DNA of 64,000 nt from Schizosaccharomyces osmophilus (Eukaryota). The stretch spans positions 1,922,001-1,986,000 of the forward strand of contig NC_079240.1 in assembly GCF_027921745.1 (NCBI RefSeq), written 5' to 3'. Below the pieces are notes generated by a model. It was not told the DNA's origin and searched no databases. It was given only the letters and a program-made list of their open reading frames with translations. How positions within the stretch are numbered: position 1 is the first letter of the stretch; every line of letters starts with the position of its first letter. This document shows, piece by piece, positions 55,409-56,474 of this stretch. Both the position numbers and the translations under genes were made by a program.

Positions 55409-56474
55409 TCAAACATCAGCCCTTTGCTCAGCAAGAGGCTGAAGTTCGATTTCTTCGTTACGAGGTGGACCATTCCTGCTAATTCTGTTCTGACAGGTTA
55501 TTAAGAGATCCTAGATTAAGAATAATAAATGTACTTACTACACGTGTCATATCTTGAATATCTTCAATCACATCTGGGTTTCCTAGAGAAGTTAGAAAGG
55601 TTGATAGAAAATAGCACCTTACGAATGAGAAGAACAAACAAGCATATGTTCAGTACAGCTAAAACCATTAACACCGCAGCTGAATGTATAAATTCAAAGC
55701 TTCCTGATAATTTTAAAGCACCACCCCCAACTCCATTGAAAATAATGAGTGTAATTAGGTCTTTACACACAGCTGGCGCTCCTCCACCTTTCTTAATGTA
55801 CTTCTTTGTTGCTCTTCCAGCTTGCGTGAACAATCCCAGATAGAGCATATGCGTTGCTAATAGTTAGTAAATTGCTCAAAGTGAAAGACATTGTTGTTAA
55901 CTTACCAAATAAAAACAACCCTAACACTACAAAAAAGCTGCCAAAAAGCCACCAAAAGGCTTGTGCATTCACAGAAACCTTCAAACCGAAAAATAACACA
56001 GGTAAAACAGCATAGGCCGCAATGTAGGCAAAAGATGTAGAAAACAACAAGTACATTATTATCTGCCACTTATCCATCGAACTCGACCTAGTATTATTAA
56101 CAGTATCTTGGGCGGAATTTTGAGCGGATCCATCAGCCATTTCTAAATCAATAAATTTGCTTGAAGCTAATGGATGTATTAGTAAATAGTTCGTTGTTTG
56201 TGAAAAGATAAAGGTGTCTATTATGTTTGCTGACAGTTATCGACAAGGTTATTGATTTCAAACCCAACAATCAAATAAACAAGCATGATTCTTCCATCAA
56301 GAACCGTTCAAAAAGCACGCAAAGAATTAACCTCTCTATTTTAATTCAACAAATCTTACCTGTATACGGAGGAGGCGTACCATCTGAAGGAGACGACCGA
56401 CTATCTGCCTTTTCATCATTGAGCGTTTTGGAAGAGTCATCAGAATCTGAAATAGGAGAGTACTTGTTTTTCAT
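55409..56474 (-). CDS. wtf: wtf-family meiotic-drive (poison/antidote) membrane protein, 5 exons: 56474-56360, 56166-55906, 55856-55623, 55582-55539, 55489-55409 (244 aa)
   Basis: Exon 1 MKNKYSPISDSDD..TPPPYT carries a PPxY motif. Intron 1 is long (193 nt), and exon 2 has IDLEM with an in-frame ATG at 56140. Several TM segments follow, and the C-terminus is EEIELQPLAEQRADV. All introns are GT-AG, and the exons total 735 nt with no internal stop. Adjacent to 5S rDNA. Confidence 0.85.

What the first reader, a model, noticed from the sequence alone, without database searches (positions are those of the whole stretch)
55409..56474. Intact five-exon wtf with poison/antidote architecture but only a degenerate intron-1 FLEX site
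Seen: exon 1 (38 codons) ends in PPPY. An in-frame ATG at 56140 near the start of exon 2 would give a shorter isoform lacking the PY motif. Intron 1 contains TGTTTATTTGA on the sense strand (56271-56281), an imperfect match to FLEX (TGTTTRTTTAC) that keeps the ATAAACA core. Known: wtf antidotes carry N-terminal PY motifs for Rsp5/Pub1 ubiquitination, and poison transcripts start in intron 1 under Mei4. Inference: this is either an active driver or an antidote-only suppressor whose poison promoter has decayed.
Basis: partly seen in the sequence, partly recalled or inferred. Interest (0 to 1): 0.7.

Follow-up and report, generated by a model that had tools for sequence, protein, structure and literature searches.

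The report
Known fission-yeast spore-killer gene, weak promoter
This is an already annotated fission-yeast spore-killer (wtf) gene, intact and pieced together from two gene subfamilies, whose poison promoter is likely weak, as is published for all intact copies of that species.

Summary
The five-exon model is right. It gives a 244-aa protein identical to the annotated Schizosaccharomyces osmophilus wtf39 (SOMG_04923), syntenic with wtf5 of a second strain, which is published as 'predicted driver, no FLEX hit'. It sits in a standard 5S-wag-wtf-5S unit. PPPY (34-37) and the in-frame ATG at 56140 are real and family-wide. The quoted FLEX-like site is at chance level on its own. A missing strong FLEX is a species trait (0 of 31 intact genes in print), though this intron is in the weakest class: related contigs read better motifs at two sites. 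New here: the protein is a mosaic, with exon 2 from one subfamily and exons 3-5 from the repeat-less subfamily that includes a proven poison. Its poison region is at most 63% identical to any of 74 relatives, so it is unlikely to suppress other loci. Most likely it is a self-protecting wtf making antidote and little poison; active drive is not excluded (three or four weak forkhead cores remain). No expression or toxicity data exist for this gene in my calls. The neighbouring wag family carries a conserved PY motif, noted in passing.

The parts
56360..56474 (-). wtf exon 1, antidote-specific; start codon at 56474; Lys2, 4, 16, 22
   Evidence: equals P0001 residues 1-38
56364..56375 (-). PY motif PPPY (residues 34-37)
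   Evidence: a PY motif in the first 45 aa of 65 of 73 family proteins
56167..56359 (-). intron 1 (193 nt), predicted seat of the poison promoter
   Evidence: promoter role by homology (PMC9562144, PMC9762604)
   Evidence: most related contig depth reads ATAAATAAACA at 56271-56281
56224..56234 (-). GTCAGCAAACA, at the offset (240) where 18 paralogues have the weak FIMO hit GTCAACAAACA
56191..56201 (-). ACAAACAACGA, third weak forkhead-like site (offset 273)
55906..56166 (-). wtf exon 2; first two hydrophobic helices; P0002/P0010-type sequence
56138..56140 (-). in-frame ATG (Met48), predicted start of a 197-aa poison isoform
   Evidence: Met at this column in 70 of 73 proteins
55623..55856 (-). 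wtf exon 3; repeat-less-subfamily sequence after about residue 144
55801..55856 (-). recombination breakpoint zone (residues 126-144)
   Evidence: four triplet tests, 0 of 2000 permutations each
55539..55582 (-). wtf exon 4 (44 nt), without the 7-aa Gly-Asn repeat
55409..55489 (-). wtf exon 5 with stop codon
54602..54720 (-). 5S rRNA gene downstream of wtf
   Evidence: Rfam RF00001, 107 bits
57570..58440 (+). wag gene (SOMG_04924), divergent from wtf; intron 58087-58141; 271 aa; LPKY at residue 31
   Evidence: wag4 in the syntenic published row
58769..58887 (-). 5S rRNA gene upstream of the wag-wtf pair; direct repeat of the first, one base different, 4167 nt apart

Best explanation
This is the intact S. 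osmophilus gene wtf39, a recombinant wtf that likely makes its PY-tagged antidote but, from a predicted weak intron-1 promoter, likely little poison, so it would protect itself and drive weakly or not at all. Shown here: gene structure, identity with the annotated protein, PY motif, in-frame Met48, mosaic ancestry, absence of a canonical FLEX. Inferred from the family: the long isoform is ubiquitinated by Pub1/Pub3-type ligases through PPPY and nearby lysines, co-assembles with the short isoform and takes it to the vacuole; the short isoform is toxic if made; the short transcript is scarce.
For: Identity and annotation; syntenic wtf5 row 'DRIVER, FIMO NO, wag4, 5S both sides, 1066 bp'. Weak promoter: it is one of 6 of 31 intact genes with no FIMO hit at all; related contigs read better motifs at 56230 and 56271-56272. 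By analogy, the 18 S. octosporus genes with no hit have 12 short reads of 3439 (0.35%, at most 2 a gene) against 188 of 5294 (3.55%) in the 20 with a confident hit, p = 1.6e-4 (numbers from the published table); drive tracked short-transcript level and the no-hit gene tested (wtf62) did not drive. Toxic potential: relatives on both sides of the mosaic are proven poisons (S. cryophilus wtf1, 74% identical over residues 145-244; S. octosporus wtf25, 51% over residues 69-125). Antidote mechanism: PMC10721834.
Against: No transcript or toxicity data for this gene. The expression argument is borrowed from another species, and S. osmophilus may use other promoter rules since none of its 31 genes has a confident FLEX. 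Intron 1 still has 4 forkhead-type cores (11 of 5000 shuffles; 3 and 45 of 5000 without the one on the branch site). The 11 S. octosporus genes of the repeat-less group do not differ significantly from the other 37 in short-read share (p = 0.20). One of the two S. osmophilus poisons tested in print (wtf19) was not toxic.
Confidence: 0.5

Rival explanations
1. Active meiotic driver: several weak forkhead sites in intron 1 together give enough Mei4-dependent poison, and the mosaic poison is neutralised only by its own antidote.
For: Intact frame and Met48; 4 forkhead-type cores, above shuffled expectation (motif recalled and chosen after seeing the intron); 14 S. octosporus genes without a confident FLEX have short transcripts; no relative above 63% in the poison region; an artificial chimera made a new self-specific poison (PMC13160552).
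Against: No FIMO hit even at the loose cut-off; no-hit genes in S. octosporus have about a tenth of the short-read share; the three clear S. octosporus drivers all have the perfect 11-mer; FLEX deletion abolished drive of S. pombe wtf4; three of four artificial chimeras did not give a new driver.
Confidence: 0.27
2. Functionally dead or dying copy: the short isoform is not toxic, so promoter strength is irrelevant.
For: S. osmophilus wtf19, also without a FIMO hit, encodes a non-toxic short isoform; some S. pombe Wtf proteins have lost toxicity by few changes; exon 2 sits on a long end branch (0.37-0.44).
Against: No frameshift or stop, all splice signals kept; 4 of 5 non-pombe short isoforms tested in print were toxic, including S. 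cryophilus wtf1, which has no FIMO hit either.
Confidence: 0.15
3. Antidote-only suppressor of a driver at another locus.
For: Single conserved PY motif and lysines; weak promoter motifs.
Against: Antidotes neutralise only very similar poisons; none cross-protected at 13-76% identity. Nearest relative is 63% over residues 48-244 among 74 compared; in the published matrix the syntenic gene's best non-pombe match is 62.2%; its 90% cluster has one member. Published antidote-only genes in these species lack the exon-2 ATG.
Confidence: 0.08

Closest known systems
S. osmophilus wtf39 / SOMG_04923 (WBW74990.1), syntenic with wtf5 of strain CBS 15792
   Same: Same protein, letter for letter; the published coordinates differ from the window's by exactly 1,922,000 at both ends, as do those of set5 and SOMG_04924. 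The published row for the syntenic gene already says predicted driver, no FLEX hit, wag and 5S on both sides, no exon-4 repeat.
   Different: Nothing in sequence. I found no functional test and no description of its mosaic origin in searches or in the passages read.
S. cryophilus wtf1 (SPOG_03611, P0105), shown to encode poison and antidote in budding yeast
   Same: 60% identical overall; 98% over residues 1-47 and 74% over 145-244; no exon-4 repeat; wag and 5S context; no FIMO hit.
   Different: Exon-2 helices are of another type (19% identity over residues 69-125).
S. octosporus wtf25 (SOCG_04480, P0013), a proven meiotic driver
   Same: 49% identical overall; related exon 2 (51%); five exons, one PY motif, Met at the same column.
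   Different: It has the perfect FLEX 11-mer and the most short reads in its species (33); exon 3-4 of the repeat-bearing type; no wag or 5S next to it.
S. pombe wtf drivers (wtf4, cw9) and antidote-only suppressors (Pfam PF03303 WTF)
   Same: Long and short isoform layout, N-terminal PY motif, several membrane helices; PF03303 is the top Pfam hit (E 8e-4).
   Different: Score 19.7 bits is under the curated cut-off of 25; the syntenic gene is 12-16% identical to the S. pombe proteins shown; one PY motif instead of two or three; 5S/wag instead of LTR context; no FLEX.

Membership tests
wtf gene family | Sequence homology to Wtf proteins | tested here: met
   Identical to an annotated wtf; 71 hits to the profile, all from three Schizosaccharomyces species, weakest E 2e-35, including wtf25.
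wtf gene family | Pfam PF03303 at its curated cut-off (link to S. pombe proteins) | tested here: inconclusive
   19.7 bits against a cut-off of 25, E 8e-4, top hit; 12 of 69 relatives hit at E up to 0.05. The link to S. pombe rests on published PSI-BLAST.
wtf gene family | Five exons with intact frame | tested here: met
   A spliced contig of a probable paralogue skips exactly introns 3 and 4; introns 1 and 2 were not seen spliced.
wtf gene family (non-pombe) | 5S rDNA and wag context | tested here: met
   Two same-strand 5S genes flank wag and wtf.
wtf antidote | PY motif and lysines in the N-terminal tail, before the membrane helices | tested here: met
   PPPY 34-37; Lys 2, 4, 16, 22, 42; first helix from about residue 71.
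wtf antidote | Rescues its own poison | not testable with these tools
   Needs co-expression.
active wtf driver | [quoted passage not shown] | tested here: met
   Met48 at 56140.
active wtf driver | Canonical FLEX (GTAAACAAACA) in intron 1 | tested here: not met
   Best matches have 2 mismatches; published scan found no hit in the syntenic gene.
active wtf driver | Meiotic transcript starting in intron 1 | not testable with these tools
   Only contigs were served, which cannot show starts; the published RNA data of this strain are from vegetative cells.
active wtf driver | Toxic short isoform and biased transmission | not testable with these tools
   Needs expression tests and crosses.
antidote-only wtf suppressor | Loss of the exon-2 start codon | tested here: not met
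   Met48 present; 3 of 73 relatives have Ile there.
antidote-only wtf suppressor | A highly similar poison elsewhere to neutralise | tested here: not met
   At most 63% identity among 74 proteins; other wild strains not covered.

The most novel reading that the evidence does not exclude
wtf39 is a natural recombinant driver: an exon-2/exon-3 swap between two subfamilies made a poison that only its own antidote can neutralise, and it is expressed in meiosis from a cluster of weak forkhead sites with no canonical FLEX. It would be a natural example of driver rebirth by recombination and the first shown driver in S. osmophilus.
Probability: 0.22. Interest if true: 0.5.

Novelty: already known. 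Interest (0 to 1): 0.2.

Why it matters
The gene and its missing FLEX are in published tables, so the finding itself adds little. What remains open is species-wide: S. osmophilus keeps about 30 intact wtf genes with poison start codons but none with a strong Mei4 site, so either the whole family is muted or it uses another promoter logic. This copy is a clean test case because its mosaic poison has no close relative that could mask or explain an effect.

Tried and rejected
No whole genome is held for this window, so paralogous introns could not be aligned directly; I used published motif tables and laid contigs instead. Alternative acceptors for intron 4 (55485, 55479, 55476) end early in another frame, and 55511 leaves a 28-nt intron; the annotated protein uses 55490. 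Single exons hit no Pfam family. No RNA holder listed; this is no evidence on expression. No contig of the four runs covered 55922-56009; a hole proves nothing. Supplement searches for this intron's motifs and for its sequence in the alignment file found nothing; the published tree file came back cut, so clade membership of the 11 S. octosporus genes was inferred from the matrix order, wag linkage and zero repeats. First tree tests on 65 rows did not reject joining P0001 to either of two whole exon-2 clades (p-AU 0.62 and 0.66; the quick search had missed better trees); narrower tests on 23 hand-picked rows did reject, with groups named after the first trees were seen. The profile search of representatives never ran. 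The AlphaFold model is poor (pLDDT 57, pTM 0.31), so no fold search was run. wag as a distant wtf relative: rejected by profile comparison (probability 0.2%) and Pfam; the Atlas gave no usable hit. No earlier scan findings.

Full report
Observation. The minus strand holds five exons (56474-56360, 56166-55906, 55856-55623, 55582-55539, 55489-55409) with GT..AG introns of 193, 49, 40 and 49 nt and an open frame of 244 aa. PPPY is at residues 34-37 and is the only PY motif; the ATG at 56140 is Met48, in frame. The quoted 11-mer is at 56281-56271.

Identity. A search with exon 2 returned 9 proteins, all named 'wtf meiotic driver' of Schizosaccharomyces osmophilus. The top one, P0001 (WBW74990.1), equals the spliced model letter for letter. 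The supplement of PMC10085805 (table rows seen) lists SOMG_04923, wtf39, chr3 1977409-1978474, 'syntenic with wtf5 in CBS 15792'; these coordinates and those of set5 and SOMG_04924 are the window's plus 1,922,000. In PMC9562144 (named sections and supplement sheets 1b, 1c, 1d, 1p, 1r and one row of 1e read) wtf5 is 1066 bp, with wag4, 5S on both sides, predicted driver, no FLEX hit, no exon-4 repeat. The window shows that unit: two same-strand 5S genes 4167 nt apart and one base different, enclosing wtf and a divergent two-exon wag. A contig of run X4 skips exactly introns 3 and 4; it has the depth of a record with 24 other letters in exon 3, so it is probably a spliced paralogue, and the run's kind is only guessed as DNA.

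The FLEX question. The published motif is GTAAACAAACA. Alone it is chance. None of 31 intact S. osmophilus genes has a confident hit; 25 have a weak one, 18 of them GTCAACAAACA, and 6, this one's counterpart among them, have none (counted from the sheet). Where those 18 have their hit (offsets 239-242 in the forward-strand rows), this gene has GTCAGCAAACA at offset 240. Laid contigs confirm the correspondence: at 56230 most depth reads the paralogue letter (168.7 of 266.8 in X1, 2074.8 of 3377.4 in X2), and at 56271-56272 most depth gives ATAAATAAACA (345.4 of 465.1; 3824.9 of 4531.9), while other contigs match this gene with no difference. X1, X2 and X4 are one sample and depth is no copy number, so I cannot say how many copies share this intron or which state is older. 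Against a dead promoter: the intron has 4 forkhead-type cores (pattern recalled, chosen after seeing the sequence), reached by 11 of 5000 shuffles; without the one on the branch site, 3 cores, 45 of 5000 shuffles and 6 of 388 window tiles.

What weak motifs mean elsewhere. From the published S. octosporus long-read counts for all 48 intact genes: confident FLEX, 188 short reads of 5294 (20 genes); weak hit, 23 of 2055 (10 genes); no hit, 12 of 3439 (18 genes, at most 2 a gene); p = 1.6e-4 for confident against none. The three clear drivers have the perfect motif and 22-33 short reads; wtf62 (no hit, 1 read) did not drive. In S. pombe, deleting FLEX removes drive and keeps the antidote (PMC9762604, passages). 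This is analogy across species, not a measurement on this gene.

Mosaic ancestry. Against 72 relatives, residues 69-125 are 61-67% identical to P0002, P0010, P0003 and P0004 but 18-25% to the 15 relatives that share its exon 3 (50-83%); the first four are only 24-27% identical in exon 3. Four triplet tests place one switch between residues 126 and 144, 0 of 2000 permutations each. In trees, residues 152-222 fall in a fully supported repeat-less clade (17 of 71 rows); on 23 chosen rows the data reject joining the exon-2 segment to either group of exon-3 relatives (p-AU 0.001 and lower) and the exon-3 segment to its exon-2 relatives (p-AU 0.0007). Broader tests on 65 rows were inconclusive for exon 2. 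Gene conversion in this family is published; this particular mosaic I did not find in searches or in the passages read, but figure supplements were not visible to me.

Mechanism. By family knowledge (PMC10721834, passages and section 12) the long isoform binds Pub1/Pub3 through its PY motif, is ubiquitinated on tail lysines and is sorted to the vacuole with any like poison; the short isoform lacks the motif and kills. This protein has the motif, five tail lysines and four or so hydrophobic helices after a disordered tail (low-confidence model). Relatives on both sides of the mosaic are proven poisons: S. cryophilus wtf1 (P0105; 74% over residues 145-244) and S. octosporus wtf25 (P0013; 51% over 69-125). 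One of two S. osmophilus poisons tested in print was not toxic (PMC11892871, passages). Antidotes need a near-identical poison; none cross-protected at 13-76% identity. The closest of 74 proteins is 63% identical over the poison region, and the published matrix gives 62.2% as best for the syntenic gene, so a role as suppressor of other loci is unlikely. I put 0.5 on an antidote-expressing, weakly or non-driving gene, 0.27 on an active driver, 0.15 on a non-toxic copy and 0.08 on a trans-suppressor. Artificial chimeras gave a new self-specific poison in 1 of 4 cases (PMC13160552, passages).

Verdict. Already known gene, already tabulated as lacking FLEX; the mosaic and the argument against suppression are small additions. 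Interest 0.2.

Noticed in passing
window 57570-58440 (+), wag gene and 30 homologues (P0074-P0103): The uncharacterised wag family has a Wtf-like layout without detectable homology to Wtf: LPxY near residue 31 in 29 of 30 proteins (the exception is a partial one), a second [VA]PxY in 29 of 30, 4-8 lysines in the first 80 residues, a Met after both motifs in 25 of 27 aligned, then membrane helices with a variable repeat. It may be a Pub1/Rsp5 substrate or adaptor, or a second PY-controlled toxin family. A paper search for wag gave 2 papers; the passages read in PMC9562144 do not mention PY motifs; the other was seen only as a listing.
   Followed up: partly
P0105 and P0104 (S. cryophilus) against P0061 and P0057 (S. 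osmophilus): Two S. cryophilus Wtf proteins are 92-93% identical to S. osmophilus ones, above the 85.2% average for orthologues, in a fast-evolving family; this hints at exchange between species. The paper notes only that these genes nest among S. osmophilus genes.
   Followed up: partly
window 49867-50760 (+): Three consecutive short frames look like a broken zinc alcohol dehydrogenase gene; the middle one hits PF00107.
   Followed up: no
window 59583-59822 (+), 60129-60455 (-), 53518-54129 (+): Small hypothetical genes SOMG_04925, SOMG_04926 and SOMG_04922 flank the unit, with orthologues listed only in S. cryophilus or S. cryophilus and S. octosporus.
   Followed up: no
P0003, P0042, P0045: Three relatives have Ile in place of the poison Met, the usual mark of antidote-only genes.
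   Followed up: no
window 56835-56845 (+) and 57228-57238 (+): The region between wtf and wag has FLEX-like 11-mers with 2 mismatches (four in all); not tested against chance.
   Followed up: no
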